A stretch of 64,000 nt of DNA from a virus: IMG/VR virus record IMGVR_UViG_3300032047_000003, positions 47,568-111,567 of that record. One strand, written 5' to 3'. The notes beneath the pieces are model-generated. The model saw nothing but the letters and a program-made list of their open reading frames with translations, did not search any database and had not been told where the DNA came from. This document shows positions 17,301 through 62,170 of this stretch, one piece after another (the stretch's first letter is position 1; the number at the start of each line of letters is the position of its first letter). A program made the position numbers and the translations under genes.

Positions 17301-20300
17301 TTCCTTTACTACTTGCAGTTGCTCCACCTGAAAGGGATTAGTTTCAGAAAGCTCCATTAGCATCAAATATCTTCCTGGAAAGCCTTCAACATTGCTCACT
17401 TGCGAACGGTTCACAACAACCCTTGGAGTTATGTCGACTCTTGTAGATGCGTCGAATTCGTTATCTTCATTCAATGTAAAAGACATGTCTACTGCTTTGA
17501 AACTTCCCAGAAGCCTAGTTAAAAAAGTATTCAAAGAAAAAGCATGACTGTCTGGCGCTTCCCTAAAATCTCTTGCTTGTTTTTGCAGCCTGTTTAAAAC
17601 AGAGTGCAAATGTTTCATCGGAAGGCTCATTGAATCCAAACCGTTGTCGCTTAATCCCGAATCAAAACTTTGAATTTCAAAAGCATAACCTGGCTCCATT
17701 GAGCCCATGTGCTGTGTTGTGGGAAATTCGTAACCCACTATTGGTATGCTAGCCACGATATTGGAAAAAGAAGCAGAGCAAGAAGTTACAAAAACTTCTT
17801 GATGGACTTTTTTGCTTCCAAGTTTGTGATATATCTCTTTTCTAATGTTTTCGTAATTCAAAATACTTGGGTCTGCTTGCAACCCTTTTTGAAATTCAAA
17901 CATCTCTTGCATTAAAGCTGCGTCTTCGTTCGAATCCAATATAGAGCTTAAGTTAGTTAAAGGAAGGTATTCGTTTTTATATAAAATATTTCCTGGACTA
18001 CCACCTCTTAAGTAAGGTTGAAACCCAAGTTCGCTTAATTTAATCATTTTATTTATATACGTTTTAAAAATTAAATTTTCATCTTTAGTCAACGACTTAA
18101 TGTCTATGTCTTTTTTCATTTGAAAATTATTTGCGTATGCTTCTACATCGGTTTTCAATCCTATCTTACTTGGGCCTTCTGGCTTTGATTCTTCTTTTGA
18201 AAATTTATGCATTAAGAGCGGATATGGCGGTAGCGCTTTCTTGCCTCCCGCAGCAAATACCCTTATTTCAAAATGCAAATGCTCTCCTTTAGAACCTCCC
18301 GTATTCCCCATAAAGCCAATAATGTCTCCTTTTTTGACCTGTTGACCTCTTTCTACAGCAATAAAAGCTAAATGCGCGTATTTGTGATAGAATACTTCGC
18401 CACCTCCAGTAGTGTCACTACTGGATAGCTCTGTGTAAAAACCATAGCCCGAAGCATTATTTTTTACAAATTCGACCACTGCGTCTTCCACTGCAAAGAT
18501 CGGAGCTACTCCCTTCCCTTGAATAGTCCTAAGAGCGCTCTTATGATCATCAGTTGCAAAAGGCTTACTTGAATCTGCTATAAAAGTTTCAAATTTGTCT
18601 TTAAAAGATCTTATTTGACCCCTTGCTTTAGAAGTAGTCCCGCTAACTTTTTCACCTTTTAAAACCTTTTTTAAATCTTCGTAACTCATGTAAGCTTCTT
18701 TCTTTACAGCAAGATCTATACCTTTATGAGGCCTGTTTTTTTTCTTTGATACTGGGTGTATTGGTCTAATCCCATAACCGTCTGTTATAACTGCAGTAGC
18801 TTTTTTATCTATTAGAGAGCCTAGGGGCGGGTACAAAGTTCCGCCGGAGTCTTCGTATTCTTGAATTGTTAAAATATTCTGACCGTAGCCTGTAAAACTG
18901 TAATCCTCTGGACTCGTTTTCGTTCCAAAATTCCATATTTTACTTACGTCTTTCGAGTTGACGTATTCTCTTCCGTATGAATGTCCATTTACTTTTCCAG
19001 TCTTGTACATTCCCTTTAAATTAAGCTGTCTGTTGTTAGGGAAAGCATAACTGGATAAAGGTACTATCTTGACTTCTTTTAAAAATTCTGCTTGAAGGTA
19101 TTTTCGCTTGCACCTTTCTACGAATGGGGGCATGTTAAGTCGAACAAAACCTCTGTAATTTAATTCAAAAGAAGCGTGATGTGAATGCATCTTAGATAAA
19201 ATGGAATTTACAATTGAACTATCTTCCAAATGAAAAGATTGAACTTGATACCAAAGGAAGTTGTCGTTATCTACCGAACTGCTTGTTCTGTGTCCTTTTG
19301 TAAATTTTAAATAAGAGTTACTGTATTCAGGTCCCTTAGAGTTAGCTTCTGCTTCTTCCACGCCCCACTCAGGGTGATATTCTGAAAAAACATCAATCCC
19401 GAAATCCGAAAACAATGCTTCAAACTGCAAGTCGTTAATATAACGCTTGTAGATATTACTGTGGTAAGCAAAAGTTGCAACAGAAGGAGACATGTTATCT
19501 GGAAGCTCCATTCCGTCCATGAGAACTCCAGAAAAATTATTTAAACTATTTTCTAAACTCATATTGTTTGTTGAAGCGTCCAGTAGTGAATTGAAATCCT
19601 TATACCTTAAATGCGGATAGTTTTTATAATGTTTTTTGTCAATCTGCATGTCCATATACCCCCTTTTTAATTCAGGGCCTATTACAACTGGAATGGTTCT
19701 TTGAATCCAACTCGCTCCTGACGATATTGGCAAGGTGTAATAGTCTTTTTTATAGAGGTAGTTTGGAGTATAAGGCAAATAATTAAACCATTTCATGTCA
19801 AGTTTAACAATAAACGTACCTGGCAGCCCCGCTGCTTCGTTTATGTGAAAGTTGGTAACAACAAATGCCATCTGTTGGAAAATGTTATCGCCTTTTTCTG
19901 GACTCAAAGAAGGGTCTATTGCATCTTTTATAAAATTGTTTTGCACGCTAATGAAAGGTGAATTTCTTATTTCTACGATAAGTCTATGCAAGTGAAGAAG
20001 CAAGTCTGGAGTGAATATTATATTCACGGTAACTTGACAAAAACCTTGCCCGCTCGGGACTTTTGTACTTTTCGAACTTCTTAAAGTTTTCCAGTTCCAA
20101 TAAACGTCTTCTTTTGATATGTTTATATTTGTAGGCGGAATATTAAGAGCAATGTCATTGATGATAAAATTAGATTTTGGGTCAATTGTATAAACTATAT
20201 TGTCGCTATTCTCGTTAGTAACATTAGATTTCCTTAACGAAGATTTGCCTCCTGGCAAAGCACTATTTTTATTGTAAGAATCTCGAAACAACCCTTTTCC

Positions 20301-20324
20301 TTTTTGCAACTTACTGCTTCCCAT
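8349..20324 (-). CDS. Giant baseplate hub-like protein with an M23 peptidoglycan endopeptidase domain
   Basis: 3991 aa. M23 motifs HKGID (~res 533), YAHL and GNTGGSKGEHLHFEIR (~res 682). The C-terminal third has hub-like blocks (RPGMNIQLRAGYS, STIWDVF, GEISILGDPSVKPWD, VKSVTHIFSFETGYIT). Confidence 0.75.
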   Translation of the reverse strand: MGSSKLQKGKGLFRDSYNKNSALPGGKSSLRKSNVTNENSDNIVYTIDPKSNFIINDIALNIPPTNINISKEDVYWNWKTLRSSKSTKVPSGQGFCQVTVNIIFTPDLLLHLHRLIVEIRNSPFISVQNNFIKDAIDPSLSPEKGDNIFQQMAFVVTNFHINEAAGLPGTFIVKLDMKWFNYLPYTPNYLYKKDYYTLPISSGASWIQRTIPVVIGPELKRGYMDMQIDKKHYKNYPHLRYKDFNSLLDASTNNMSLENSLNNFSGVLMDGMELPDNMSPSVATFAYHSNIYKRYINDLQFEALFSDFGIDVFSEYHPEWGVEEAEANSKGPEYSNSYLKFTKGHRTSSSVDNDNFLWYQVQSFHLEDSSIVNSILSKMHSHHASFELNYRGFVRLNMPPFVERCKRKYLQAEFLKEVKIVPLSSYAFPNNRQLNLKGMYKTGKVNGHSYGREYVNSKDVSKIWNFGTKTSPEDYSFTGYGQNILTIQEYEDSGGTLYPPLGSLIDKKATAVITDGYGIRPIHPVSKKKNRPHKGIDLAVKKEAYMSYEDLKKVLKGEKVSGTTSKARGQIRSFKDKFETFIADSSKPFATDDHKSALRTIQGKGVAPIFAVEDAVVEFVKNNASGYGFYTELSSSDTTGGGEVFYHKYAHLAFIAVERGQQVKKGDIIGFMGNTGGSKGEHLHFEIRVFAAGGKKALPPYPLLMHKFSKEESKPEGPSKIGLKTDVEAYANNFQMKKDIDIKSLTKDENLIFKTYINKMIKLSELGFQPYLRGGSPGNILYKNEYLPLTNLSSILDSNEDAALMQEMFEFQKGLQADPSILNYENIRKEIYHKLGSKKVHQEVFVTSCSASFSNIVASIPIVGYEFPTTQHMGSMEPGYAFEIQSFDSGLSDNGLDSMSLPMKHLHSVLNRLQKQARDFREAPDSHAFSLNTFLTRLLGSFKAVDMSFTLNEDNEFDASTRVDITPRVVVNRSQVSNVEGFPGRYLMLMELSETNPFQVEQLQVVKERKSLIKKDIEYSDVLLAIKKASYEGLKDEAKKALVINYLKEFKGKWENGEYSVLEYDLDTKDFIEKSYSPARLSADASAPQVSYNGYLMPDSDKVLQIAQSRFGEEVINMIGEDEFEGIVKQYYNAGEEIETIDGGFFSYLEEEDFREFYDDYPWFKDREALTGENTINELIYFIQLLGTIESKIRHTIAEESAGGISKKVAYETLYDLNKWSINSSDVSGEESEVEGYYLNASPSLWRNYIYYNYNFLKEKVVGDGVFDSLNGALGWTKGDLERFQQSIDYGVLYDEYDNLEEEYEKIASVFFFNLVTGPADGSAPEISEIETPVDLVEYFKASNSGSDSALKASFYYELNRALSTTFLLAIGSSGNIELSSSEVIRLVSSGLNDEYQRLGIKTDASIEIKQEDLINLNIDTNGLPNNADKKQQEELAIIYNFRKQIIGNDTMPFYIDRDGNRVLADGNNFRNDFLACRALAERAWNAAVEAGLYNDAVRSQLTKDLYIRAQDLLNEILYDYISKENNLSEDPILQNISKPGAYREEAADGGWAQGFLFKEIPIVETQGITEIHKKARGIVNKNTLVYSRGGHSMYTPLHPVDQLLHDYMKIELQGGIPVFGPSFIADHLLGETEELSHNFNISEQLYLRLDKGIEHVTPGPTAIWNVHPEDEKAINTFLSSNVQRLGNFETTSGSMGWGGAMNTGLNSLFWEDQGSAFDGTTVTQLTLRALAFKDARDQVHGKYINYLDTINLAKVGGMDLLENNFTLLKSYAYMKFSKDAYKDAPPKIQKFIMFKQLESYFEQYSEWFLEPRIINEFGLDDLRSGFNVGLNSIERGFGGMFQTTAHGEYNPDKLDYSASNGAAIAKGVGGGLLVYDVARSLKTGKDVARLTPYGLIGSGIEVGTEAVFRSAHYGSQSIKVDGLSLKTGNPTSTGIYTKEFDLFGNPTGKLSAETLNKLAATSMLINRSNSALSKYYSTKAEELMTRLHSNFKSDVDDKGNLKIESMLGTDVKYLSETANESRYAKGAALSNNFRFRDIRTDLEVLKEINLSNYINADDELKKLEAFRNELKSFVEEVKKNREVCYALGIDFLNESYNYVPPSERYSGIECYPDLGLPNHPFYTQSNFETGAAFYMWDIYNDGGAKITKEFLDEIERNSKVYLEGAYKHLKKMESKSITAIRVADSDATDVTNDNTSGLSTNNEGTDNVLYPYDTYYDSNGHYVLYKNLGEANSPFFTGQAKRNDLTDSLKKEIVTLIQESEGKDSFVFKFDQNGDGSSYDNSYVAETREQVVAQRTSLYRYLRFIDADGNRSITKPWSAKITDGASGFGGMLYDSAATVGGWAVGIDTSYIMDGQQGVQSPSDAISGFNRVHEITGVEPLKAIVKNNSYDSSALYVHENGNLLEEVNSVAMLSDEVMQIENMFGNGAGYVGDLIEEKSENSKAVETLLNDVKLRGLGAQTNYNQTFSLEGLNSLAKASSARLFTEKKKLSRAYPTFKLFFIEEDEFESRFINMDDFYSFNGVRSFSVSRSRENAADSAIISLQNIAGTLDGTRKGATIDVDYFSKKRVERIKRENKSSEKKDRNTLVSYSADNSNLESDTDQPFSAVVLRPGMNIQLRAGYSNNPDNLEVLISGRVTDISWGGAGDTCEIVVQSFGTELVQHLKGIEEDSKNKEYFATHQVLGSLMLSPELKHFGRWETGRIFQYGEAQDARLDFFRYKDNSDPSALQGYKQWAGFLSDWGLETAIASVGIGISFLFTKRLGLGKVGLPGFGLRGFTVKAVEGGSKLAPRTAWRLPFSYIRTAVASLMNPRFFPFVSGSLGRLASRVGLNRVGSLMRGGFSTVSGYTALRRGLAQGGDAALGAFKHLFIGIGDDLVRAASSVVKTVAAEVKVLSAATTSLTQTALRKSLLSVETALKAVPRGSSYAVFKTLTKEIDEIFAIIGRTAVSGADDVLANPQLTKRVFDLFKASERFMIAAVSQPSFARSVYLQGFRGAGGSTPLFLGTTALSATFNSTAIFFKTSLFFFAVDYIGGGIFGKSFTDTHKEYRRLYQNWFTKELVYFKLNPSDDNLYPPSPIYYMHNLTHIEKTVSEKVGMLFQMAFSDFSGAEGKSAMEFLKDWQNVNPLLYLKRVHPDACRYKLQNSTIWDVFHEMTLRHPGWIYSAVPYGKEFRYTMFFGIPSQRYWSKPATPGFIQRMNSVRELLTANVDDEDDLKRFFKQGYNEDYKTKKISDAEYEEFKKKARKNLMSKFKGKARNLLAVANQVKTTYNRAEYHAAMSKRKFTDTWNIAIGVYNPDAIVTEADLKDRQNYYETNSWDETGSNLLFLMEEMLKKPKRYSGMSQRELKRKFERMAAKGEARLKLKDKARSIETDIRADETFSDINDRKKLIEFINNRADHRFSTFGSKIENFLADENNVDERYVEGQTISKDDLELNRNTIELRGRLLKEYLTGLENRFVPFRNYHLIRSRENLIRNNFTVSQRNAVNSVNVYYKDMHDANNKKSVFMKASSNIPDSNLISQNVDKYDIRDRAMATRYGIGSLIYGVKEMYSGEISILGDPSVKPWDVCFLFDDQSKMSGPVEVKSVTHIFSFETGYITEIVPNAIVVGNESSSWPVLEALKVYVGGAIARERSVIDRGSSSDASSVNEQYGGDKNLPAILTTSKDKEELDTAIKRMNESTSRELGEIGYGTLGQRLGIIPESPDVSLNIDGFNLSYEASSSMIERYSDLVRNGIIEYKEVVDIDKNIFGETTNTENNVKATVNLEKLFKDLGNQNPSLNSDFSDFQDQAVSTVESLFDLGVSAFFAADALNPTTGTAGQFATKAIGLTGAGLSLLLLGKWKLNAGGLLKAAGVGGSGGVYMAGVDNQYYYNSSQVLDRFSSSYLIAAPIIFSKLLESEAVTIVPIVKEGKPLFAGVSTRSPTSVWQNILGDIVSGIDDAFRGVFDTIDENEAMGTEFYKHIVSRNPERANDPGLKYLKDSGQLLQYIKGN

Positions 20325-20326: not shown

Positions 20327-23300
20327 TTAATCTCCAAAAAACTTTCGTCGAATATAATTTTCACTTACAGGACCCCTTGTATCATTTATAGTAAAATGAC
20401 TTTGTCCTCCCATTGCTCCCACAATGTAAGATAGCTCTGATACTGATCTCATATTATGAGCCATTCCTCTCATTTGAAAACCACCTGGACTGTCTGCTAA
20501 AACTTGACCTATATTTATCTGCCTATTCATTATATCATTTTCTATCGAATTCTGCATATTTTGAACTGCTTCTTGACTCGGTCCCGCCTCAAAAGCGTTA
20601 CCTTCTCTGATAGCGGCTTTTAATTCTGGCGAAACCATTTCGCCTTCCATTGATAAAGGCACAGGGTCGTAACCACCATAACCCAAACCCGATCCAAGGG
20701 CCATAGTTGCAGCTAAACCAACCCCAAGACTTCCAATCCTTCCTCTGGAGCCAATTTCTACAGCATTCGTCCTCATAAGAGTACCAATAGTCCTCATCGC
20801 CTCTTCAAGGTCACTCATTGTGGTCTGCTCTATATTAGAACCCATTAGTTGCCCTTGAACATTGTTCCTTAGAAGCCCTTGAAACATTTCGTGATAAGCA
20901 CCGAGTTCTTGCTTGGAAGCAATACTTAAACGTCTTTCTGTTTTTGCATGCAAATAACCTGCTTCGCTTACATGAGGAAGCAAGCTTCTTAGATAAGGCA
21001 TTACATAGCTAAGAGCGTCTTCTGCAGAATTGGTTCCTCCCGGAGCAAACAGATTTATAACTTTTTGACCTTCCAGACTGTCCGCTAGTACGTCCACCCC
21101 ACCTCCCACTACATTTGTCTTACCAAATGTAACATCGAGATCTACTTCTCTAAAAAGATAGTCTTTAAAAAGTTTTTCGACAGTATCAAAAGCACTAACG
21201 TCTCCTTGTATTGCTGCATTAATATTTCTCGATATTGCTTCAGCCAAAGGTATATCAGTTGGAAGTTTTTTGGCTTTAATAACTGCGACTTCTTGTATTG
21301 CGGACAACAAGTTCAAAGCATCAGATGCAACCTTTCTTGTTGATTCATCAGCAGTATTAACGATTCCCAATCTTAAAGCGTCAAAACTAACATCAATTGG
21401 CCCTACGTTTTTACCCAGCTGCTCCTGTCTTGCCTTTACAGCGATTTCTTCAATAAGACTTCTATCAACATCCCCAATGGATCTTCTGAGATTGTCAATA
21501 CCTTCTCCTGCCATACTAAACAAAACCCTTGTTTTAGCTCTATAAAGAAGTTTTTGTTTTGCTATGTTTTCTAAATTAGCCTTACCCTTCTTCCCTAAAA
21601 GGTTTATTTCTTTTTCTCCTAGATTGCTTCTAGTAGGAAATAAAAGCTGGTAAATGTCCCCGTCAAAGTCACCTATCATACCACCCGCTAAAGATAAGTC
21701 CATTCTTTCCATCTTGCCACCATAGTGAACATCTACCATAAACTGAGGAATACTAATACGCCCACCGCCCACTCCAGGAGAAATTTCACCCATATGATTT
21801 CTCATTGCATCGAAAAAACTTCTTAGAACTTTATGCCTTTCCCCTTTGACTGTAACTCGATTTTTAATCTTTGTCATTCCCGCTTGGAGTTCTTGGTCGT
21901 AGTTGCCGCTAGCAATCGCTTGATCAATTCTTGTATTCTTTCCCTTGATATCGTCAATGCTTTGCTGTAGCTCAGCCATACTTTCTGGATCTGACATACT
22001 CAACAAGCTTTCTTCCATGCTTTCGATTTTTAACAAATTCCTTCCTTTCATATAATCCAGCACATGTTGATCACTAGGTGTTTGTATATTTTTCGGTCCT
22101 TGCTTTACAAAAGTCAGCAAATCTTTAAAACCTTTAACTTCATTACCTGTTAAATTATAAAAGTCCTGCGCAGCCCTTTTGCCGCCTTTAGTTTCAAGAA
22201 GCTTTTCAAAAATATTATCCTTCCCGCGCAATTCAGAAAGTTCTCTAAACGCTCCAACGAACTCTACGTGGGCGCTCCCCATCACGGGATGTCTCGATGC
22301 AATAGCAATATTTGCCAAACTTGGGCTAGATTGATCATATGAGCTTAGAAAGAAGTATTGAAGGGCATCTCTTGTTGCCCTTTTGCTATCTACCCTAGCT
22401 TTTTTAACTGCTTGCTTTGGATCAACTCCTTTTGATACTGCATTTTGCATTACATATTGAGCATTTACTCCAGATGAAAAACTAGACATTGCATTCAAAA
22501 AAGAAGTACTGTCTTGAAAAACAGCATGACCGAATGTTACTCTTTGAATTTTTCTCATTAAATATTTTTCTTCATTCGTATAATTGGTAGACCCTAAAGA
22601 CTTAGACAGATAACCTTTCATTTCGTCTTTACCGATAACAACATTGTTTAAAATATTCATCCCCTTTCTTTTTGCTGCATCTCTTTCCTTTTGACTTATT
22701 CGAGTGTTCTTGCTTTCCCTCATGGTAGAAACGTAAGTATCGTACGTTTGTTTATCTAAAGAAGAAGCAAAATCTGAAAATATGTCTACTCGTTTTTGAA
22801 GACCAACAGATTGGTTCATCCTGTAGTTGCCGCTTTTTGTTTTTTCGAAAACGTTTCCAGTTATTTCTATTTCTCCGCTTTCCCTGCCTATCTTCAAACC
22901 TAAAAACTCATCATGAAACCTACCAGTGTCTACAGTTCCACCTAACCCAAAAGTAGATCCAGACATTTTACCTCTTAAAGTCTTTCTAAAAGAGATACCA
23001 AAAAATTCACTCATTGAATCTTTAAAATCGTCCAGCCCTCTAAGGGCCATGCCTATCGCTTCAGTATTGCTTTGTGCTTTAGAAACTTCAACTAAACTTC
23101 TACTAAACCTACTTAGCGTTTTGATATAATCTGCGTCTATTTCTCTAAAAGCATCATCAGTAGGAATCAAAGTTCTTTCTCGTTCAAGAAGCTCCAAGAA
23201 GTTATCTCCACCTGGAAGATATATCTGTGAAGGAAAACCAGAAGAAGCCATTCTGTTTGTCAGCGTTTTGTCTCCTGACAAGTCTAATAAAAAACCACCT

Positions 23301-26300
23301 TTTTGTTTTGAAAGAAAACTTCTAATTTCTTTTTCTGATGAATTCTGAACAAACTCATCCACTGAAACTCTTGGAACGTCTTCTTCAAATAAACTTCTGC
23401 TTGCAAAAGACTCCATCGTCTTTGAATATTCCCTTGCCATTGCAATATCTTCACCAGTATTTTTCTTTCTCGAAAGAATAGAAAACATAAAGTTGGAAAC
23501 TTTTTCTTTGCTAACGCCCATTTCCTGAGTTAATTTATGAGACAAAAAATTATATAAACGCGGCTCAATTGATCCCATATTCTGTCCCAAGCTAGAACTT
23601 TGAGGACCGATTTCCAAATTAGTCAAACCTAATGCGACACCTTTCGAAACTTGTTTTTTTAATTTTTCTATGTACTTTTCGTAAGAACTGTTTTGGTCAA
23701 CTGGAAGGCCCATTTCTCTATGTGTGTCTCTTACTAAATTTTCAAAATCGCTTCCAGATACGCCTTCAACCGAATCGCCAAACATGCTTTTTGCAAAATA
23801 ACCAAAAGTCAATCCCTGCTTTTCTATTGCTGTATCGCTAATGTCGGTACCATATTTTTTAACTGCTAATTTTATTGCATTTTTTACCAAAGTATTATTT
23901 TGCTGAGATACGCTAAGATCGTTAAAAGCTTCTAGCGACATACCCCCTCTTTTGGTATCTGTCACTAAGCTTTCCAACTCTCTGCTAAAATCACTTTTAG
24001 CCACTCCCATTAAGATATCCAACGAGCTGCCAATTTGCTCTGCTAAGTTCATTGATGCTTTTTTCAACATAGCCGCATCAGTTGTAAAAACGCCGCTAAC
24101 ATTATTATTGGCTGAACCAACTCTTCCAATAATTGTATCGGTCAAACTAGAGCTTATTCCAGCTCTTTGTGTCAAAGTAGACCTCATGGTCTTTTCATTT
24201 GTTTTTTCAATTGTACCCTTGAACATAGTAGAAAAGATCTTCATAAAAGGATTATCTGTATCTCTGAAACCAGTAATCGAATACTTCCTAAGACCTCTTC
24301 CTTGACTGTCCAGTTCTTCCGTCAAGCCAAACTCTAAACCTTCAAGACCCGCATATCGCGGCAAGTATTGACGCCTTCCATCAATCATTCCAAGGTACAA
24401 TCCAAAATTATCTTCCTTTGCTCCAAACAATCTAAAGAAATCAGTTATATCAGAATATATTAACTGGTTGGATTCAATTCTAACTTTACCTTCTAGACCT
24501 TTTTTAGTAATTAAATCGCTAACCACCTTGGAAGTTTTTTGAGTTTCTCCTCCCTTCACAACGCTTCCAAAAAAATCTGTAACAAATTCGCCCTGAGCAT
24601 TTGTTCTCGTTCCAATATTGATATTTCGAATGCTTTCATCCCCCGTAGCAACTCTATGCTTTAGCTCTTCAAAAAGCACATTAGAGGCTCCCCCAAATTG
24701 TTGTGGATCGTAAACAGGTTTATTTATAGCTTTAGTAACTACTGTTTCTCCAAAATAATTTGCGGTACCTTCTCCTATTCCAAAAATATTTCTTCCCAAA
24801 TTAAAAACATCTTTATCTCCTTTTCTTGACCCAGCTAAGACGTCCATAACAGCAATGCCCTTTGGTCTTCGCATTTCTACGCCTCCTTCATAAAGATTGA
24901 TTGGCGGCGATTGATTTCCGGGATGCATATTGTATCCAGCCCTACGTTTGCCTCCTCCCTGTCTTAAAAACTCTTCTCTATTGTACATCTGCCTAAATCT
25001 TGCAGTAATCGGCTGAGTTGCTCTATTGGTTAAAAGCCCTCCAAACTGCCTTTGAGCAGTTTCTATAACTCCGTCAGCAAAATTGCCCCCATACATCTGT
25101 TGCAAGAAAGCGCTACGCAATCCAATATCTCCCATGCTTTGATTAAAATTACCAGAAGTAAATGGATTTGCTGAAAAGCCAAATAGATCCATTACTTGAG
25201 AAAGCATAGGTCTGAGATCCTTTTGATCTGCAGGCCCCAATCCTAAAGGGTTTATTATCTTCAAGCTATGTCCAGTTTGCCTATACTTTTGCTCTAGAAA
25301 CATGGAGGTAGTTTCAGAGCCCGTAGAGCCTGTCCGAGCGCCAAACCTATCGATAAACTCTAAAGATTGCTGCATATTTTGATTTATTAAACTTATATCT
25401 CTAGAAGAAACTTTATCAATTCCACCTCTTTTGTCGACATTCGATATAAACATTTCCGCCAACGCTTGCTCCGGAGTCATAAACTTTCCTTTGGAAATTT
25501 TATCTAAAATCATTTGTTTCCTACCTGCAACGTCTTTTATTTTTGCTACCTCATTTAAATCTGACGCCTTAGCGTAAACTCCAGAACCCGCATACATGGT
25601 ATTCATATTTCCATATCTAACTGGAAAAACTCCCTGACTGCTAAAATTACCCAAGCTCAAAGGTAAACTTTGAAGCTTTCTTCCACCTCTGTGTATTTCT
25701 ACATAAGGCACCACTCCCGTTGTACTGCCTACTCTTTCCGTTCTAGTGTTAAATTGAAACGAGACTCCCGATCCAGAAAAAGCACTTTCTAAAGCTTGAA
25801 AAACTTTTGTGTTTTTGTATTTATTTATTAAGCCACTGCCTGATTCTATTGAATTCAATCCAGGTTGTATTCCCGAAAGGTTAACCTTTTGAGGTTGAAC
25901 TAAAAGATCTGAAACGGGATGAAAAGGACTACTAGCGTATCCTGAAATTTTACTAATCCTATTGCTTCCAGAGGTTTCCGATTCAACAATTTCGTTAATT
26001 ATTTCTTTTAAAGAATCAGAGTTTTGAGTTAAATTTAATTCTCCTTGAAAAGACTGTTGAATTAAGTCTTCGACTACTTTCATCATAGTTCCAGTGCTAT
26101 CTGAAATATTTGGATCTGCTAATACGGTTTTTAAATTAGCCAAAAAAGCAGTTTGTTCTTCCGCTTGCCTGACTGCTAATTTTCCTAAAAACTCATCAAC
26201 ATTTTTGAATCTTTTAATCGCGTTTTCTTTTGCAGCGGCTTTCACTTGAGACCTGACCATCTGATACCGGTCGAAAGACTCACCTACTTTCGAATGCACA

Positions 26301-26491
26301 TCTCCCATCTGATTAGTAGGTAGATTTGCTAAAAAATTAGGATTATTAGACTTCATAGATTGAACGCTTTGATAGGACGCAAATCCTAATGGTCCTAAAC
26401 CAAAAGCAGTATTAAGTAAAGCATTTCCTTTTGCTTTTAAATCATCAACAGTGTCTGAATCTTTATTAAAAAACGGTAATTTAAAAGCCAT
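20327..26491 (-). CDS. Putative single-chain two-barrel (DPBB) virion RNA polymerase, ~2054 aa
   Basis: GDFDGD at 21656-21673, SRHP at 22286-22297, FRKTLRGK at 22967-22990 and KIFSTMFKG at 24215-24241, in the order expected for fused beta then beta-prime modules. Start moved to ATG 26491 behind GAGGTG. Confidence 0.7.
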   Translation of the reverse strand: MAFKLPFFNKDSDTVDDLKAKGNALLNTAFGLGPLGFASYQSVQSMKSNNPNFLANLPTNQMGDVHSKVGESFDRYQMVRSQVKAAAKENAIKRFKNVDEFLGKLAVRQAEEQTAFLANLKTVLADPNISDSTGTMMKVVEDLIQQSFQGELNLTQNSDSLKEIINEIVESETSGSNRISKISGYASSPFHPVSDLLVQPQKVNLSGIQPGLNSIESGSGLINKYKNTKVFQALESAFSGSGVSFQFNTRTERVGSTTGVVPYVEIHRGGRKLQSLPLSLGNFSSQGVFPVRYGNMNTMYAGSGVYAKASDLNEVAKIKDVAGRKQMILDKISKGKFMTPEQALAEMFISNVDKRGGIDKVSSRDISLINQNMQQSLEFIDRFGARTGSTGSETTSMFLEQKYRQTGHSLKIINPLGLGPADQKDLRPMLSQVMDLFGFSANPFTSGNFNQSMGDIGLRSAFLQQMYGGNFADGVIETAQRQFGGLLTNRATQPITARFRQMYNREEFLRQGGGKRRAGYNMHPGNQSPPINLYEGGVEMRRPKGIAVMDVLAGSRKGDKDVFNLGRNIFGIGEGTANYFGETVVTKAINKPVYDPQQFGGASNVLFEELKHRVATGDESIRNINIGTRTNAQGEFVTDFFGSVVKGGETQKTSKVVSDLITKKGLEGKVRIESNQLIYSDITDFFRLFGAKEDNFGLYLGMIDGRRQYLPRYAGLEGLEFGLTEELDSQGRGLRKYSITGFRDTDNPFMKIFSTMFKGTIEKTNEKTMRSTLTQRAGISSSLTDTIIGRVGSANNNVSGVFTTDAAMLKKASMNLAEQIGSSLDILMGVAKSDFSRELESLVTDTKRGGMSLEAFNDLSVSQQNNTLVKNAIKLAVKKYGTDISDTAIEKQGLTFGYFAKSMFGDSVEGVSGSDFENLVRDTHREMGLPVDQNSSYEKYIEKLKKQVSKGVALGLTNLEIGPQSSSLGQNMGSIEPRLYNFLSHKLTQEMGVSKEKVSNFMFSILSRKKNTGEDIAMAREYSKTMESFASRSLFEEDVPRVSVDEFVQNSSEKEIRSFLSKQKGGFLLDLSGDKTLTNRMASSGFPSQIYLPGGDNFLELLERERTLIPTDDAFREIDADYIKTLSRFSRSLVEVSKAQSNTEAIGMALRGLDDFKDSMSEFFGISFRKTLRGKMSGSTFGLGGTVDTGRFHDEFLGLKIGRESGEIEITGNVFEKTKSGNYRMNQSVGLQKRVDIFSDFASSLDKQTYDTYVSTMRESKNTRISQKERDAAKRKGMNILNNVVIGKDEMKGYLSKSLGSTNYTNEEKYLMRKIQRVTFGHAVFQDSTSFLNAMSSFSSGVNAQYVMQNAVSKGVDPKQAVKKARVDSKRATRDALQYFFLSSYDQSSPSLANIAIASRHPVMGSAHVEFVGAFRELSELRGKDNIFEKLLETKGGKRAAQDFYNLTGNEVKGFKDLLTFVKQGPKNIQTPSDQHVLDYMKGRNLLKIESMEESLLSMSDPESMAELQQSIDDIKGKNTRIDQAIASGNYDQELQAGMTKIKNRVTVKGERHKVLRSFFDAMRNHMGEISPGVGGGRISIPQFMVDVHYGGKMERMDLSLAGGMIGDFDGDIYQLLFPTRSNLGEKEINLLGKKGKANLENIAKQKLLYRAKTRVLFSMAGEGIDNLRRSIGDVDRSLIEEIAVKARQEQLGKNVGPIDVSFDALRLGIVNTADESTRKVASDALNLLSAIQEVAVIKAKKLPTDIPLAEAISRNINAAIQGDVSAFDTVEKLFKDYLFREVDLDVTFGKTNVVGGGVDVLADSLEGQKVINLFAPGGTNSAEDALSYVMPYLRSLLPHVSEAGYLHAKTERRLSIASKQELGAYHEMFQGLLRNNVQGQLMGSNIEQTTMSDLEEAMRTIGTLMRTNAVEIGSRGRIGSLGVGLAATMALGSGLGYGGYDPVPLSMEGEMVSPELKAAIREGNAFEAGPSQEAVQNMQNSIENDIMNRQINIGQVLADSPGGFQMRGMAHNMRSVSELSYIVGAMGGQSHFTINDTRGPVSENYIRRKFFGD

Positions 26492-29400
26492 ATTCACCTC
26501 TAATGTATTGCTCTATAATAGCACTTCTGTCATCATTCATGTAGAAAACTCCAGAAGTATTTGTTCCAAATCTATTTACATTCATTTGCCCTGTAAAAGG
26601 AACGTTGTCCAATTCAGATCTACCTGCAGTTCTTAAAACAGAACCTAAGTTTAAGCCTCTTCCCATTTCTTCTACAATTGGGTTTTCTACGCCTTCCAAA
26701 TAGGGCATTCGGGCCTGAAGCCTTAATCTTTGATTATACATGTCTAAGTCTCCTAAATCGATTCCAGTTCTATCTGCATATCTTATCTTTACGTCATCCA
26801 TTTCTACATCTTCGTGCCATCCCACCCAGTCTGTGCCTGGCATAGGTTTTTCGTAAAAATATTCTTCCAAGCTGGCCAACTTCATTTTTAAATACCTTTC
26901 ATCAATTTGATTTTTATAGCCTGGGTTTAAAGTTGGATCGCCAGCATCCAATCTACTCCAAAGACCTATGTAAAGGTCCCTGTTGTCTTCCGGAACCATT
27001 TCAAGAATTCTCTCTCTATCTTTTTCTGAAGCCATAGAAAAAGCATCAAAAAAAGCTTTTTCTCCTTCTGGCAATGCTTCGTAAATAGCCATAGCATGAG
27101 CCTGAGGATTAACCCCAAAAGTAGTCTTAGAAGCCCTGTAAAGAGCCTGCCTTTTTAAATTACTATCTCCCATTGCTTCAGCTCTATCTGCAATTTTCAT
27201 CTGTTGAATGAACTGCAATTTGTCAAAATATTCATTAGTTTCATTTGCTTTTCTTCTAAAACCTGGGACGTCGCTATAGCCCATTATATGAGCAGCAGAA
27301 TAGAAGGAAGGTCTAAACCAATCACGAATAGGCTTATCCCAAAAAGAATTAACCGTACCATAAAGTCTTTCTTGCTCATAAGACTCTATAGCAGAAATCC
27401 CCATGTAAGAAGGATCTGTTAATAGCTTTTGCGAAGGTCTAAATCCCATTGGAACCAAATATTCTGCAGGGGCTAGCCCTGTTTTTAAAACACTCCTAGC
27501 AGTTCTACCTATAGCCCTTGTTGTATCGCCCAGAAAGGGGATGTCATATGCATCTGGATCCATTTCCCTAATACTTTTGTCAGACATTTTTTCATTAAGC
27601 ATTTTGTCCGTTTTATCCATGTAGGATTCAACAGCTCTATTCATTTTGCCCGAAGCTCTTTGCTTGTACATGTTTTCTCTAAGCATAATAAACTCTCTAG
27701 AGTGAGGAGCTATATCTGCTAGAATGGAATATTTAAAAATATCTGGGTAGTTTTCAGGACTTATGTTTTTTAATTCAGGATGAATAGCAGCATAACCTGC
27801 TCCAGGAAGTCTTACCTCGCCATACTTTACATTTCTATATGGATCTCCATATTTAAACCTATCAGGCATCCAAGTAGGCATTGAATTGACAATTGGATTA
27901 TAGTGTTGAATCATAGACCTTTCTCTTGGCAGAAAACGTCTAATCGGTTCAGTAGTAAAGAACCCGCCGCCTAGTTCTTTTTTCCAAAAGTCTTCTTTTG
28001 CCGAAAACATTTTACCCGCACTTTCTAAAACAGGTCTTTGTATTCCAAAAGTTTCTTCTCCCGTAAGAGCTTTTGTATACATGTTTTTAGCCCAACCGGT
28101 AAGACCTTCAAGCTCTCTAAACTGATACTGCAATTCTCCCGCTACAAAACTGCTGGAAAACGGAGACATTGGCTTGCCAGGGCTAATACCCCCCAGCTTT
28201 CCGCTAGGCCCTTTGTATTCGTTTCTGTGAGCAAACTCAACGTCTCCTTGTTCGTTAACCCTCATAAACTCATTTACATGCATCAACTTTGGAGGTTTAA
28301 TTAAACGGCCTACCGTGGCTGACAAAAGCTTTCCAATTACCGGCACATTTTCAAAAGCTCCCCCAGTTATAGGATAGGGCCTGTCGTAGTAGTTTTCTCT
28401 TTCCAGTTGATAAGTAAAGTTTTCTAACAAAAAGTTGTGTATCGGAGATCGATTGACTTTATACCTTGCTTTATCTGTCGCCTGAGACATGTAAGCTACA
28501 TAGTCATGTGGTCTGAAATACGAAACACCCTTACCTTCATAAGAACTTCCGCCGCCCTCCCACCAGCGCCCTTTTCTCACCTCTACTAGTTGCCTTCCAG
28601 AGTATATTTCATTAAGCTCTGTAGGACCCTTCATAGACCCAAGAAGGCCACCAGTTACAAACTGTTGAGCTAGCAGACCTCCAAGAAATAAACTTCCGTA
28701 TCTGCCAAATTTAGTTTTATAGTTTAATTTCTTCGCAGCCTCAGTAAAGCCTTCACCTTCTTTTGTTGCTCCAAAAAACGAATGTATTATAGAAGCGTTA
28801 GCAGTTTCAATTTTCTTTCTAATCCCGCCAAACATTGAAGTGTCATCTATATACCTTGCGTCAATTTCTTCAAGCTTTCTTAAAAAAGACTGATTCATCG
28901 GATTGTTTAACCCTGATTCCATTTCTTTTTTAACTGCAAGTCCTTGCTCGAATCTTAACGACAGCTCTTCTTGAATCGCTGCAAGTCCTTTTTCACCGAA
29001 TTCCCTTTTGCTGACGTCCATAAGTAACGAAGACAATTTCATTCTTGAGAAATTAGATTCAGATTCCAATAACTCTCTAAGTAAAATATTTTCGTCAACC
29101 GTCATTGCGTCGATTAACGTTCTAGGCCCTTTAAAAATTCTATCTGCTTTTTCGGTTAAAAACCCTTCGCCCTTTATTCCTGCTTGCGTAAATTCTTTTG
29201 CTACTGGAAACTCTGTAAAAAACATCGATCTTACAGATTGCTTTTGGTAGTATCGTAAACCTCTACTAACTAAAGCATTTTCGTCAAATGCAATTTCAGG
29301 AGAAATGCCTAGTTTTATTTTTTGCGATTCATCTAACTTTTCATATATTCTGCTAGAGATAGGTTTGCCACTGGCTCCACTGGCTAGAGCCAAAGAAAGA

Positions 29401-30719
29401 CCTACAAAAGCCCCCGTCTTCCAATCGGAAACTCCTGGAAGAATGCCTTCCATAGTCCTCCTGTAAGAATTCATGAATGTGACTTCTCCTAAAGCTGCGG
29501 TTGCGATATGAGCATTCTTGTACATGGTATAGGCGCCGGCTCCAATTCCTTGATCGAAGCCGGGCAGTATAAGCTGAGCTGCAAAAGCAGCGCCTGCAAA
29601 CATTCTAGTTTTTTTAGGATCTAAAGTTTTAAATAGTTTTTGAGCAGCATGCCCACCCGCCAAAGAAGTCGCAGCGGAAAATACAACATTTCCTAAAAAA
29701 CCAGTTTCACTTCTCCAATAGTCGGCTTCTTTTAAACCTACTCCCAATGCACCGAGCTTAAAGGCTTTAAAGCCAAACCTCATAAACATTTCAGAAGCCC
29801 TTCCAGGCTTAACCGTAAGCCCTAAGCCAAAAGAGCTTTCTAATTTGCTTGAAAGCCTATTAACTACAGGGACTTGCTCTGTAGCAGTTTCAAGAAGTCT
29901 GTTGGTTCTGTCTAAGCCAAAAGCAAAAATACTTCTAAAGAAAGTAAACTTGTCGTTTGACTTCACAGACTTTATCGGAAGGAACATCGATTTGTTTTCT
30001 TTTTTTACGTCATCGATTACTTCTGAATAAGAAAATATCCTTTCAAATGCTCTTCTAGTATTGGTTCCAAAATCATCGGCAAAGCCTTGAGCCAAACCAT
30101 ACGCATAAGCTACCGGATTCGTAACTGGAAGTCGAGAGCCAAATCTTCCGCTCCTACTATCGAAAGAAGTTCGTTGAAGCAAAGACACCTTGTTCGAAAC
30201 AAGACGTCTTTCATCTCCCTGTTCGAAGAACAAAGAACCTTGAGTAGACCCTTTTTCTATCTCATAGGAAAAGCTATATCGACCCTTGCCTATGTCTAAG
30301 AAAGCAGACCCAAACTCTTCTTCAAGAACTTTTAACTCTTTTCCAAATTCTTTTTCAAGAAAAACTCTAGTCTCTTTAGAAGCAGACATTTTTTCATCAA
30401 AAACGTACTTATAGAAACCATCTTTTTCAACTAAATCAAGTCCAGAAGGCGAACTAAATGGAGATAAAAATTCAGCAGGTCTAAAGGTATTAAGTAAAGC
30501 GGCAGGCGAATTATACGCTATTTGGCGACCGTACCTTCTAACGTGATCTAGATAGGTTCCCTCTCCGTATTTTATCTGACTTGAAGCAAATGCCGCTCCG
30601 CCTAGGAGACCAAGACCTCCTAGGTAAAACGCACCTCTTTCGGTAGGGTTTTCGTAAGGTTCATATTGCGAAGCACTGTACAGTAAAGACTCGCTACCAT
30701 ATCCAATTCCAGGCGGCAT
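26481..30719 (-). CDS. Tape-measure-like or internal virion protein
   Basis: 1412 aa directly after the chaperone pair. Gly/Ala-rich hydrophobic segments in the N-terminal half; aromatic-rich C-terminal half (VRKGRWWEGGGSSYEG). Confidence 0.6.
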   Translation of the reverse strand: MPPGIGYGSESLLYSASQYEPYENPTERGAFYLGGLGLLGGAAFASSQIKYGEGTYLDHVRRYGRQIAYNSPAALLNTFRPAEFLSPFSSPSGLDLVEKDGFYKYVFDEKMSASKETRVFLEKEFGKELKVLEEEFGSAFLDIGKGRYSFSYEIEKGSTQGSLFFEQGDERRLVSNKVSLLQRTSFDSRSGRFGSRLPVTNPVAYAYGLAQGFADDFGTNTRRAFERIFSYSEVIDDVKKENKSMFLPIKSVKSNDKFTFFRSIFAFGLDRTNRLLETATEQVPVVNRLSSKLESSFGLGLTVKPGRASEMFMRFGFKAFKLGALGVGLKEADYWRSETGFLGNVVFSAATSLAGGHAAQKLFKTLDPKKTRMFAGAAFAAQLILPGFDQGIGAGAYTMYKNAHIATAALGEVTFMNSYRRTMEGILPGVSDWKTGAFVGLSLALASGASGKPISSRIYEKLDESQKIKLGISPEIAFDENALVSRGLRYYQKQSVRSMFFTEFPVAKEFTQAGIKGEGFLTEKADRIFKGPRTLIDAMTVDENILLRELLESESNFSRMKLSSLLMDVSKREFGEKGLAAIQEELSLRFEQGLAVKKEMESGLNNPMNQSFLRKLEEIDARYIDDTSMFGGIRKKIETANASIIHSFFGATKEGEGFTEAAKKLNYKTKFGRYGSLFLGGLLAQQFVTGGLLGSMKGPTELNEIYSGRQLVEVRKGRWWEGGGSSYEGKGVSYFRPHDYVAYMSQATDKARYKVNRSPIHNFLLENFTYQLERENYYDRPYPITGGAFENVPVIGKLLSATVGRLIKPPKLMHVNEFMRVNEQGDVEFAHRNEYKGPSGKLGGISPGKPMSPFSSSFVAGELQYQFRELEGLTGWAKNMYTKALTGEETFGIQRPVLESAGKMFSAKEDFWKKELGGGFFTTEPIRRFLPRERSMIQHYNPIVNSMPTWMPDRFKYGDPYRNVKYGEVRLPGAGYAAIHPELKNISPENYPDIFKYSILADIAPHSREFIMLRENMYKQRASGKMNRAVESYMDKTDKMLNEKMSDKSIREMDPDAYDIPFLGDTTRAIGRTARSVLKTGLAPAEYLVPMGFRPSQKLLTDPSYMGISAIESYEQERLYGTVNSFWDKPIRDWFRPSFYSAAHIMGYSDVPGFRRKANETNEYFDKLQFIQQMKIADRAEAMGDSNLKRQALYRASKTTFGVNPQAHAMAIYEALPEGEKAFFDAFSMASEKDRERILEMVPEDNRDLYIGLWSRLDAGDPTLNPGYKNQIDERYLKMKLASLEEYFYEKPMPGTDWVGWHEDVEMDDVKIRYADRTGIDLGDLDMYNQRLRLQARMPYLEGVENPIVEEMGRGLNLGSVLRTAGRSELDNVPFTGQMNVNRFGTNTSGVFYMNDDRSAIIEQYIRGEYGF

Positions 30720-60480: not shown

Positions 60481-60807
60481 TTATTGGCTATTTGAGGTGC
60501 GCGGGAAATCGCCTATATAGAAAAAATATATTTTTAAAAAAATTTTGCTATAAGCAATTTTTAAAAAGTTGAAAAATATTTTCAAAATCAAAATTAAAAG
60601 CATGGGGAAGGAAAATGCGAAACTTAAAAGCCAAAAGGAAAGTGAAATATATGTTGGATATAGGGTAGGTATTATATATGTTTTATTTTGCATAGTGGTA
60701 GTTGCGTGCCTACCGGGGTTTACCTGAGTCTTTTTTATTTTGCTTTAGTGGAGCGTGGCGTGCCAGGGGAAACTCGAACAGTCACTAACTTAGTCGTGGA
60801 GGTAAAC

Positions 60808-61158
60808 ATGACAAAACTTGAAAAGCTACGTAATCAGTCCTTGTACTGGTTGCGAAAGGTTTGGTGGAGAGTGACGATGCCGGTGCGTCGTGTGCTTGAC
60901 ACTAGATCTTGTCTGATCACAATTAATTCTATCTACGATGGAATTGATTGGGATCGGGAACCTACTCGCGAAGAGTATTGGTACATTGCATTGGAAATTG
61001 ATGGGATCTGCGATTCCATGATACTCCAATGGGATGTTGACTTTACTCAAAACGAGAAGGTATGCAAGATCTATGAATTCCTCGGAATTCACGCAAATCT
61101 ACATGATGGCTTTACTTGGGCAGAAGCACTTCATGTGTTTGAAACTGCATACGAGTAA
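60808..61158 (+). CDS. Hypothetical early protein, 116 aa, Trp-rich
   Basis: Start moved from 60688 to ATG 60808 behind GGAGGT (MTKLEKLRNQ...). Confidence 0.75.
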   Translation: MTKLEKLRNQSLYWLRKVWWRVTMPVRRVLDTRSCLITINSIYDGIDWDREPTREEYWYIALEIDGICDSMILQWDVDFTQNEKVCKIYEFLGIHANLHDGFTWAEALHVFETAYE

Positions 61159-61175
61159 AGTCAAGTGACAGTAGG

Positions 61176-61206
61176 AAAGGCACACTTCGGTGTGTCTTTT
61201 TTATTT
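61176..61206 (+). terminator. Intrinsic terminator with a cUUCGg loop
   Basis: AAAGGCACAC-TTCG-GTGTGTCTTTTTTATTT. Confidence 0.85.
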
Positions 61207-61276
61207 ATTGCTTTAGTGGAGGTGGCGCGCCAGGGGAAACTCGAACAGTCTATCAACACAGTCATGGAGGTTAATC

Positions 61277-61534
61277 ATGGCAAAATTCATTGAGACGTTA
61301 ATAGTAGTATGGCAACAGGCACCCTTACTCTACCTAGTAGTAGTATGGGCAGTAGCAGCAGCAATGTTGTGTGATCGCGTTAGCACAAAGAGATTCATCG
61401 CTGGTAATACAGCAATGGTGCTCGGAGTGCTAGCCTATTGGGGGCCTATTGTAGATCCCCAGTTCGCTTGGATTTACATTGCTCTATGCGGTGCACCTTG
61501 TTTGGTAGCAGCCGTAATAGCTTGTAAGGAATAA
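61277..61534 (+). CDS. Small membrane protein, about 3 TM segments
   Basis: 85 aa, GGAGGT RBS, three hydrophobic stretches. Confidence 0.75.
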   Translation: MAKFIETLIVVWQQAPLLYLVVVWAVAAAMLCDRVSTKRFIAGNTAMVLGVLAYWGPIVDPQFAWIYIALCGAPCLVAAVIACKE

Positions 61535-61553
61535 ACTACTATTGTCGTATGAA

Positions 61554-61592: not shown

Positions 61593-61603
61593 AACACTTT
61601 AGT

Positions 61604-62146: not shown

Positions 62147-62170
62147 CTCTCTCTTCCTTCGAAAAGATTT

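What the first reader, a model, noticed from the sequence alone, without database searches (positions are those of the whole stretch)
20327..26491. Divergent single-chain RNA polymerase encoded inside the tail module
Seen: KIFSTMFKG (~res 753, track numbering), FRKTLRGK (~1170), SRHP (~1401) and GDFDGD (~1609), in that order. Established: two-barrel RNA polymerases use two beta-side lysines (E. coli beta GDKxxxRHGNKG) and the beta-prime motifs FRxNLLGK, NRxP and NADFDGD; crAss-like phages package single-chain virion RNA polymerases. Inference: this is a fused beta/beta-prime-like enzyme carried in the virion. Its position between the tape-measure-like and hub genes of a myovirus is unusual and would invite annotation as a second tape measure. 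I cannot exclude that homologs are already described.
Basis: partly seen in the sequence, partly recalled or inferred. Interest (0 to 1): 0.92.

Follow-up and report, generated by a model that had tools for sequence, protein, structure and literature searches.

The report
Hidden RNA polymerase in phage tail module
A 2,054-residue gene in the tape-measure position of an uncultured contractile-tailed phage folds like the catalytic core of cell-type RNA polymerases and keeps their active-site residues, so the phage probably carries its own transcription enzyme into the host.

Summary
One minus-strand ORF (20327-26491, 2,054 aa from the ATG) holds the four motifs at the stated residues and in the stated order.

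No sequence method names the protein: Pfam, PHROGs, PDB by sequence and by profile, and 50,697 phage records all gave nothing. It does head a metagenomic family of 78 clusters at 50% identity. Across 53 members (20-76% identity) only 9 of 1,051 core columns are invariant. Five of them are RxP and DxDxD, and the two lysines are kept in 52 and 51 of 53.

The neighbouring genes are orthologues of Bacillus phage 0305phi8-36 gp145 (a virion protein) and gp147 (the hub). The polymerase therefore occupies that phage's tape-measure slot (gp146). This three-gene module is conserved in distant relatives.

Delivery in the virion is inferred, not shown. The closest functional precedent is the tape-measure-fused virion polymerase of Thermus phage P23-45.

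This scan has noted tail-slot polymerases in other phage genomes, but none that shares sequence with this family. I class it as a new variant of a known kind.

The parts
20327..26491 (-). ORF of the polymerase-like protein (2,054 aa from the ATG at 26491; an in-frame GTG lies at 26497; the stop is at 20327-20329). It overlaps the end of the upstream gene by 11 nt and ends 2 nt before the start of the downstream gene.
24212..24397 (-). Beta-like barrel (DPBB-B) region, residues about 701-762. The model predicts six strands, and the last two carry K753-x-F-x4-K760.
   Evidence: Model secondary structure. K753 is kept in 52/53 and K760 in 51/53. Structural alignments to QDE-1, P74-26 gp62 and P23-45 gp96 start at model residues 44-50, which is this region.
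21641..22972 (-). Beta-prime-like barrel (DPBB-A), residues about 1176-1619, split by two long helical insertions. It carries LxGKxxGS (1174-1181), RHP (1402-1404) and GDFDGD (1609-1614).
21656..21673 (-). GDFDGD, the putative Mg-binding loop. D1610, D1612 and D1614 are invariant in 53/53.
21353..21595 (-). A 40-residue helix directly after the DFDGD barrel (residues 1635-1674, bridge-helix-like), then a helix-turn-helix (1681-1715, trigger-loop-like) with invariant E1692 and near-invariant K1696 and G1699.
   Evidence: Model. The RNAP matches extend to model residues 1046-1051. Conservation. Naming these elements is inference.
20330..20395 (-). C-terminal tag FTINDTRGPVSENYIRRKFFGD. N-D-x-R ... 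Y-I-x-R ... G is invariant or nearly invariant across the family. A similar tag ends the upstream 1,412-aa protein and its orthologues.
26481..30719 (-). Upstream giant gene (1,412 aa), orthologue of 0305phi8-36 gp145, which is a virion structural protein by mass spectrometry.
   Evidence: phmmer E 5e-47
8349..20324 (-). Downstream giant gene (3,991 aa) with an M23 peptidase domain at residues 604-689, orthologue of the 0305phi8-36 gp147 baseplate hub protein.
   Evidence: phmmer E 1e-33
60731..63540 (+). Array of small plus-strand genes. Each is preceded by TTTATTT-N(0-8)-YTTTARYGG and follows a terminator-like hairpin. These are candidate promoters for a phage-specific polymerase. This is context for the finding, not proof.

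Best explanation
The gene encodes a very divergent single-chain, two-barrel (cell-type) DNA-dependent RNA polymerase. An N-terminal barrel supplies two lysines (K753, K760). A second barrel, interrupted by two long insertions, supplies the RxP and DFDGD (Mg-binding) motifs, and is followed by bridge-helix-like and trigger-loop-like helices. The gene lies in the late tail operon, in the slot that holds the tape measure in the related Bacillus phage 0305phi8-36, and it appears translationally coupled to two giant virion-type genes. The enzyme is therefore most likely built into the particle. It would be delivered through the contractile tail with the DNA, together with the gp145-like protein and the M23-peptidase hub protein. 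There it would transcribe the first genes independently of the host polymerase. The best candidates for those genes are the small plus-strand cassettes at 60.7-63.6 kb with their private TTTATTT...YTTTARYGG motif. Shown here: the fold, the conservation of catalytic residues, the synteny and the conserved module. Inferred: enzymatic activity, DNA as template, packaging in the virion, and which promoters it uses.

For: Conservation. The family has 78 representative clusters. In 53 members the DxDxD and RxP residues are invariant, and K753 and K760 are kept in 52 and 51 of 53. The orthologue in the complete relative G004 gives a sub-threshold hit to Pfam RNA_pol_Rpb1_2 at exactly the NADFDGD segment (E 0.004 for that genome, 14.3 bits).

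Context. Sheath, tube, chaperone-like, hub and gpJ-like genes flank the gene on the same strand. The neighbours are orthologues of 0305phi8-36 gp142, gp143, gp145, gp147 and gp151. This places the gene in the gp146 slot ('hypothetical tape measure'), and the GenBank record notes gp145 and gp146 as virion proteins by mass spectrometry. The three-gene module (about 1,400 aa, about 1,800 aa RNAP, about 3,000-4,000 aa) recurs in IMG/VR relatives that are only 24-31% identical. Gene junctions of 11 nt overlap and 2 nt gap argue for co-expression with late structural genes.

Other points. No other RNAP-like gene or sigma region 2 was detected in the window's record, and no other RNAP-like gene in the complete relative. 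There are six strict copies of a private motif, all on the plus strand in one 3-kb array of small genes. In that array sigma-70-like sites are no more frequent than in shuffles (10 against 9.7), while terminators are enriched (14 against 2.8). The precedent for a tail-associated two-barrel virion RNAP is P23-45 gp96 (PMC10770324).
Against: There is no experimental evidence for activity or for presence in virions, and no cultured relative carries the gene. The first barrel was not matched as a separate DPBB domain; only its last strands are covered by the RNAP alignments. The N-terminal model gave no RNAP-related match. I could not inspect model coordinates, so the geometry of the lysines facing the aspartates is unverified. 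The best structural neighbours (QDE-1, RDR2) are RNA-dependent or dual-template enzymes. P74-26 gp62 is the homologue of a non-virion polymerase. The window's record is only about 73% complete, so a second polymerase could lie outside it. The private motif was not found in four distant relatives. A globular core of about 1,050 residues is hard to reconcile with passage through, or storage in, a tail tube unless it is unfolded or stored elsewhere.
Confidence: 0.62

Rival explanations
1. It is an active two-barrel RNA polymerase but is not packaged. It is made with the late genes and serves as a non-virion polymerase for late or middle transcription, or is made for the next round only through read-through expression.
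Against: The gene is embedded in the tail operon and tightly coupled to it. It lies between orthologues of proven virion proteins. It shares a conserved C-terminal tag with the neighbouring virion-type protein. A polymerase first made late cannot start infection unless it is carried in.
Confidence: 0.15
2. It is mainly a structural tail or ejection protein (a tape measure or pilot protein). Its polymerase-like core is an exapted, catalytically irrelevant scaffold.
For: It occupies the tape-measure slot. The N-terminal 200 residues are long helices. The only resemblance to 0305phi8-36 gp146 is at the C-terminal end (not significant) plus a short N-terminal BLAST match (E 8e-4).
Against: The only invariant positions of the core across 53 very divergent members are the catalytic ones (DxDxD, RxP, E1692, K1743, two glycines), and both lysines are almost invariant. 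That pattern indicates selection on catalysis, not on a scaffold.
Confidence: 0.1
3. It is a two-barrel polymerase with another template or product. It could be an RNA-dependent RNA polymerase like QDE-1 and RDR2, a primase-like enzyme, or a PolD-like DNA polymerase.
For: QDE-1 and RDR2 are the first and third structural matches.
Against: crAss gp66 and P23-45 gp96 and gp64 belong to the same QDE-1-like clade, yet they are DNA-dependent RNAPs (PMC10770324; bioRxiv 10.1101/2020.03.07.982082). A dsDNA phage has no known need for an RdRP. No PolD chain appeared among the 50 rows shown.
Confidence: 0.08

Closest known systems
Thermus phage P23-45 gp96 (also P74-26, G20c, TSP4): virion two-barrel RNAP fused to the tail tape measure protein (PDB 8H2M/8H2N; Chaban et al. 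2024, PMC10770324)
   Different: The host virus here is a contractile-tailed phage, not a siphovirus. The polymerase is a separate gene, with the M23 peptidase on the next gene. Its core lies in the middle of the protein (about 700-1750) rather than at the N-terminus. No sequence similarity is detectable: the family HMM found nothing in the TSP4 genome. Structurally it is nearer to QDE-1 and gp62 than to gp96.
Thermus phage P74-26 gp62 / P23-45 gp64 non-virion RNAP (PDB 8F5M)
   Different: gp62 and gp64 have about 600 residues, are early, and are not in virions (PMC10770324). This protein has 2,054 residues and lies in the late tail operon.
Neurospora crassa QDE-1 and plant RDR2 (eukaryotic RNAi polymerases; PDB 7Y7P, 7W84)
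   Different: They are eukaryotic, RNA-templated or dual-template enzymes. There is no sequence-level match, and Pfam PF05183 is not hit by any of 26 family members.
crAss-like phage phi14:2 gp66 virion RNAP (PDB 6VR4; Drobysheva et al., bioRxiv 10.1101/2020.03.07.982082)
   Different: gp66 belongs to podoviruses. Its loop is DFDID, with Ile where this family has Gly (39/53) or Ala (12/53). No sequence similarity is detectable.
Bacillus phage 0305phi8-36 gp146 (hypothetical tape measure) and gp99 (RdRP/YonO-like RNAP)
   Same: gp146 occupies the same slot between orthologous neighbours (gp145 and gp147) and is a virion protein by mass spectrometry. gp99 shows that this old myovirus lineage uses two-barrel polymerases (PMC2147016; PMC7824862).
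   Different: gp146 has no DxDxD motif and only a non-significant C-terminal resemblance. gp99 is encoded among early genes and shows no profile similarity to this family.

Membership tests
Two-barrel (DPBB) RNA polymerase superfamily | Beta-prime-like double-psi beta-barrel carrying the metal-binding DxDxD loop | tested here: met
Two-barrel (DPBB) RNA polymerase superfamily | Second (beta-like) barrel, N-terminal to the first in single-chain forms, supplying two basic residues | tested here: inconclusive
   K753 (52/53) and K760 (51/53) lie in the last two of six predicted strands. The RNAP alignments begin at model residues 13-50 and so cover only part of this barrel. No separate DPBB match was obtained for it, and the coordinates could not be inspected.
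Two-barrel (DPBB) RNA polymerase superfamily | R-x-P motif of the beta-prime-like barrel (NRxP in beta-prime, RNPxxH in RdRPs) | tested here: met
   R1402 and P1404 are invariant in 53/53. H1410 is H in 41 and N in 11 of 53.
Two-barrel (DPBB) RNA polymerase superfamily | Bridge helix and trigger loop following the DxDxD barrel | tested here: inconclusive
   A 40-residue helix (1635-1674) and a helix-turn-helix with invariant E1692 follow the barrel. The RNAP matches extend through this region. No residue-level equivalence was available.
Two-barrel (DPBB) RNA polymerase superfamily | Template-dependent, Mg-dependent RNA synthesis | not testable with these tools
   Needs a biochemical assay.
Pfam RNA_pol_Rpb1_2 (PF00623), RNA_pol_Rpb2_6 (PF00562), RdRP (PF05183) | Score above the curated Pfam threshold | tested here: not met
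   The window protein has no Pfam hit, nor does any of 26 family members. The only signal is a sub-threshold 14.3-bit hit of PF00623 (cut-off 25.3) on the G004 orthologue. PF00562 gave none.
Tape-measure-fused virion RNAP of P23-45 type | Polymerase and tape measure in one polypeptide | tested here: not met
   The gene is a separate ORF with its own stop codon. The search for homologues of 3,599-5,000 aa found none, which is weak evidence. The longer family members (2,389-3,057 aa) are listed; the three scanned (2,481-3,057 aa) carry no Pfam domain.
Tape-measure-fused virion RNAP of P23-45 type | Presence in virions and transcription of pre-early genes | not testable with these tools
   Inferred only from the late tail-operon position and from synteny with virion proteins of 0305phi8-36.
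crAss-like virion RNAP (gp66 family) | DFDID-type loop and sequence homology to gp66 orthologues | tested here: not met
Phage tail tape measure protein | Position between the tail chaperones and the hub | tested here: met
   The gene lies in the 0305phi8-36 gp146 slot, between orthologues of gp145 and gp147.
Phage tail tape measure protein | Long, mostly helical ruler region making up most of the protein | tested here: not met
   Residues 240-1750 are confidently modelled as mixed alpha/beta globular domains. Only about residues 14-190 are long helices. There is no PHROG or Pfam tape-measure hit.

The most novel reading that the evidence does not exclude
In an old lineage of long-tailed contractile phages (the 0305phi8-36 group), the tape-measure slot has been taken over by a complete RNA polymerase. 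That polymerase and the neighbouring gp145-like protein are loaded into the tail through a shared C-terminal tag of about 20 residues. Together with the M23-peptidase hub giant they form a three-protein injection and transcription machine. This machine starts transcription at private promoters clustered at the genome end that enters first, and may help pull the DNA in. If so, tail-borne transcription would be a general strategy of contractile-tailed phages and not a peculiarity of one Thermus siphovirus.
Probability: 0.3. Interest if true: 0.8.

Novelty: new variant of a known kind. Interest (0 to 1): 0.62.

Why it matters
Virion-delivered two-barrel RNA polymerases have been shown experimentally in crAss-like podoviruses, in phiKZ/AR9-type jumbo phages (as multisubunit enzymes) and in one Thermus siphovirus lineage. 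This finding adds a sequence-unrecognisable family of at least 78 clusters at 50% identity, so far seen only in metagenomes. It lies in the tape-measure slot of contractile-tailed phages and comes with a conserved three-gene module and a candidate loading tag. It shows that current annotation (Pfam, PHROGs) misses a whole polymerase family and would label it a tail protein. It also offers candidate private promoters that can be tested. Finally, it raises a concrete mechanical question: how does a globular enzyme of about 230 kDa travel through, or wait in, a contractile tail?

Tried and rejected
**Sequence searches on the protein.**
- Pfam and PHROGs gave no hit.
- tblastn against 50,697 phage records found nothing.
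- phmmer and a family-profile hmmsearch against PDB sequences returned only helical or designed-protein noise.
- A Pfam scan of 26 family members found nothing relevant.

**Structure searches.**
- Foldseek of the core model against the PDB returned only helical repeat proteins, none with E <= 0.001.
- Foldseek against BFVD gave no significant hit. Two weak rows were 'minor tail protein' entries.

**Searches in other genomes.**
- The family HMM found no match in the TerL-related cultured phages 0305phi8-36, Moorella MTATph1, Acinetobacter ME3 and Thermus TSP4.
- hhalign of the family against 0305phi8-36 gp99 gave nothing. Against gp146 it gave only a non-significant alignment of the two C-terminal ends.
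- No fused forms of 3,599-5,000 aa were found.
- No relatives were found in 185,579 species' genomes, so there is no prophage copy and no host clue.

**A second polymerase.**
- The 605-aa ORF at 44300-46117 carries GDTDGDINQL, but hhalign probability is 1.8%. Its ESM-Atlas neighbours are prohead-protease (S78/DUF6582) families. I rejected it as a chance motif.
- The family HMM finds one copy per genome.
- PF00562 and PF04542 were not found.
- The PF00940 search is uninformative, because the controls did not ring.

**Promoter motif and contexts.**
- The private promoter motif had no copies in four distant relatives.
Full report
**1. What is in the sequence**

The window is one strand-biased block of phage late genes on the minus strand. 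In order they are TerL (51934-54126), portal (46089-47753), major capsid protein (41498-42805), tail sheath (34935-37829) and tube-like genes. Then come four genes of 220-420 aa and three giant ORFs of 1,412, 2,056 and 3,991 aa. Small baseplate genes follow, including a Baseplate_J protein (5580-6809).

The finding is the middle giant ORF, 20327-26497. It most likely starts at the ATG at 26491, which follows GAGGTG, and the database copy also starts there and has 2,054 aa. Its start overlaps the upstream gene by 11 nt. Its stop lies 2 nt before the downstream start.

**2. Sequence methods are blind to it, but it heads a real family**

Pfam, PHROGs, tblastn against 50,697 phage records, and sequence and profile searches of the PDB all gave nothing.

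The word-indexed protein search found 8 homologues of 28-75% identity. An exhaustive phmmer search of the core (residues 700-1750) found 78 representative clusters, most of them 1,650-2,000 aa long.

I aligned 53 members that are 20-76% identical to the window protein (mean column identity 16%). Only nine columns of the 1,051-residue core are invariant: R1402, P1404, G1577, G1579, D1610, D1612, D1614, E1692 and K1743. K753, F755 and K760 are kept in 51-52 of 53. G1176 and G1180 are kept in 51-52 of 53, within LxGKxxGS.

So three of the four motifs are the most conserved features of the family. The fourth (FRKTLRGK) is conserved only in its GKxxGS half.

**3. Fold**

AlphaFold2 on this alignment gave a confident model of residues 700-1750 (pLDDT 89.1, pTM 0.86).

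Foldseek found nothing in the PDB or in BFVD. The exhaustive VIA-align search of 48,161 chains did. Its 13 best rows are all two-barrel polymerases:

|---|---|---|
| QDE-1 | 13.7 | 252 aa, 3.7 A |
| Thermus phage P74-26 gp62 | 12.0 | 229 aa, 4.0 A |
| maize RDR2 | 11.5 | 291 aa, 5.0 A |
| Pol II Rpb1 | 8.5 | 281 aa, 5.4 A |
| vaccinia RNAP | 8.4 | 187 aa, 3.4 A |
| Pol I | 8.1 | 304 aa, 6.0 A |
| archaeal RNAP | 8.0 | 171 aa, 4.1 A |

This barrel is split by two helical insertions: LxGKxxGS at 1174-1181, RHP at 1402-1404 and DFDGD at 1610-1614. A 40-residue helix and a helix-turn-helix follow it, in the places of the bridge helix and trigger loop. That naming is inference.

The lysine motif lies in the last two of six strands at residues 701-762. 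The RNAP alignments start there (model residues 13-50). In gp96 they begin at residue 523, before the connector (613-679) that the paper describes as separating its two barrels (PMC10770324). I count the second barrel as probable but not independently matched.

A second model (residues 3-770, pLDDT 81.7) gave only helical-bundle matches.

That test is therefore passed.

**4. Context: it sits in the tape-measure slot**

TerL is less than 30% identical to anything cultured. Its best hits are Moorella phage MTATph1, Acinetobacter phage ME3 and Bacillus phage 0305phi8-36, with a weak hit to Thermus phage TSP4.

Comparison with the annotated tail module of 0305phi8-36 gives this map:

| Window protein | 0305phi8-36 protein | Evidence |
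|---|---|---|
| 262 aa | gp142 | E 2e-10 |
| 249 aa | gp143, tail chaperonin | E 8e-7 |
| 1,412 aa | gp145, virion protein by mass spectrometry | E 5e-47 |
| 3,991 aa | gp147, baseplate hub with cell-wall-degrading domains | E 1e-33 |
| 409 aa | gp151, gpJ-like | E 2e-5 |

The polymerase gene lies exactly where 0305phi8-36 has gp146, its 'hypothetical tape measure protein', which is also a virion protein by mass spectrometry. gp146 has no DxDxD motif. It resembles the polymerase only in a short BLAST match (E 8e-4) and in a non-significant alignment of the two C-terminal ends (hhalign E 0.06).

Hardies et al. noted that only the last 60 residues are alignable between the tape-measure-slot proteins of this lineage (PMC2147016). 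That fits the next observation.

The polymerase family ends in an invariant tag, I-N-D-T-R-x-P-I-T-x-N-Y-I-D-R-x-x-G (D2037, R2039 and R2049 in numbering from the ATG). A similar tag ends the 1,412-aa protein and its orthologues.

The three-gene module recurs in IMG/VR relatives whose polymerases are only 24-31% identical, including a complete 161-kb genome with terminal repeats.

**5. How it most likely works**

The enzyme is co-expressed with late tail genes and flanked by orthologues of proven virion proteins. It is also the only RNAP-like gene detectable in the window's record (73% complete) and in the complete relative. The simplest reading is that it is packaged and delivered to start transcription. 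N4, crAss-like phages, phiKZ/AR9 and P23-45 all work this way.

The other end of the window fits this reading. After a strand switch at about 60.5 kb there is an array of small plus-strand genes. Each follows a terminator-like hairpin and is preceded by TTTATTT-N(0-8)-YTTTARYGG. There are six strict copies, and none elsewhere in the 111.6 kb. Terminators are enriched in this array (14 against 2.8 +/- 1.6 in shuffles). Sigma-70-like sites are not (10 against 9.7 +/- 3.0).

The link between this motif and the polymerase is inference. The motif is absent from four distant relatives.

Two things remain unexplained. One is how a globular core of about 1,050 residues is stored in or passed through a contractile tail. 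The other is which protein now measures the tail. The gp145-like protein carries the same C-terminal tag and is a candidate.

**6. Comparison with what is known, and novelty**

Functionally the closest precedent is P23-45 gp96. It is a DFDGD two-barrel RNAP fused to a tape measure that also bears a metallopeptidase. Here the polymerase is a separate gene in a myovirus, the peptidase is on the next gene, and no sequence similarity is detectable.

Searches of the held literature found no description of a two-barrel RNAP in a myovirus tail module. That is only an absence in that library.

This scan has noted tail-slot polymerases in other uncultured contractile-tailed phages. A sequence look-up found no look-alike of this family outside this genome.

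I class the finding as a new variant of a known kind. My confidence is about 0.9 that it is a two-barrel RNAP homologue, about 0.8 that it is catalytically active, and about 0.6 that it is delivered in the virion.

Noticed in passing
window 20330-20395 (-) and 26481-26546 (-); also L001 and L004 orthologues: The polymerase and the upstream 1,412-aa protein end in a similar tag of about 22 aa (..[IM]ND[DT]R..[EQN]YI[RD]..G..). In the polymerase family it is as invariant as the catalytic site. It is also seen at the C-termini of 0305phi8-36 gp145 and gp146 in looser form. It may be a signal for loading into the tail or for anchoring in the hub.
   Followed up: partly
window 60731-63540 (+): There are six strict (and about three looser) copies of TTTATTT-N0-8-YTTTARYGG. 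Each follows a terminator-like hairpin and precedes a small ORF. All are on the plus strand, and none occurs elsewhere in the 111.6-kb record. Several downstream leaders are also conserved (GCCAGGGGAAACTCGAACAGTC...GGAGGTAAA).
   Followed up: partly
window 60452-60480 (-): A near-consensus sigma-70 promoter (TTGAGA-17-TATAAT with an extended -10 TG, 11 of 12) faces the minus-strand gene block at the strand-switch point. This suggests that the host polymerase reads at least the first minus-strand genes.
   Followed up: no
window 44300-46117 (-): A 605-aa ORF after the portal contains GDTDGDINQL, which resembles the polymerase loop. It is most likely a prohead protease/scaffold-type protein (ESM-Atlas neighbours S78/DUF6582), and the motif is chance.
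   Followed up: yes
window 55139-59401 (-): A 1,420-aa ORF upstream of the terminase region carries a staphylococcal-nuclease (SNase, PF00565) domain at residues 1128-1236. The rest has no match.
   Followed up: no
window 32955-34220 (-) and 34260-34922 (-): Two adjacent genes hit the same PHROGs (9206 and 34314). They are probably a tail tube gene and its paralogue, as in 0305phi8-36 gp140 and gp141.
   Followed up: no
window 8349-20324 (-): The 3,991-aa hub-like giant combines an M23 peptidase (residues 604-689, similar to those of phage internal and ejection proteins 9k2v_E and 9m7n_A) with regions homologous to 0305phi8-36 gp147. Its length is about twice that of gp147.
   Followed up: partly
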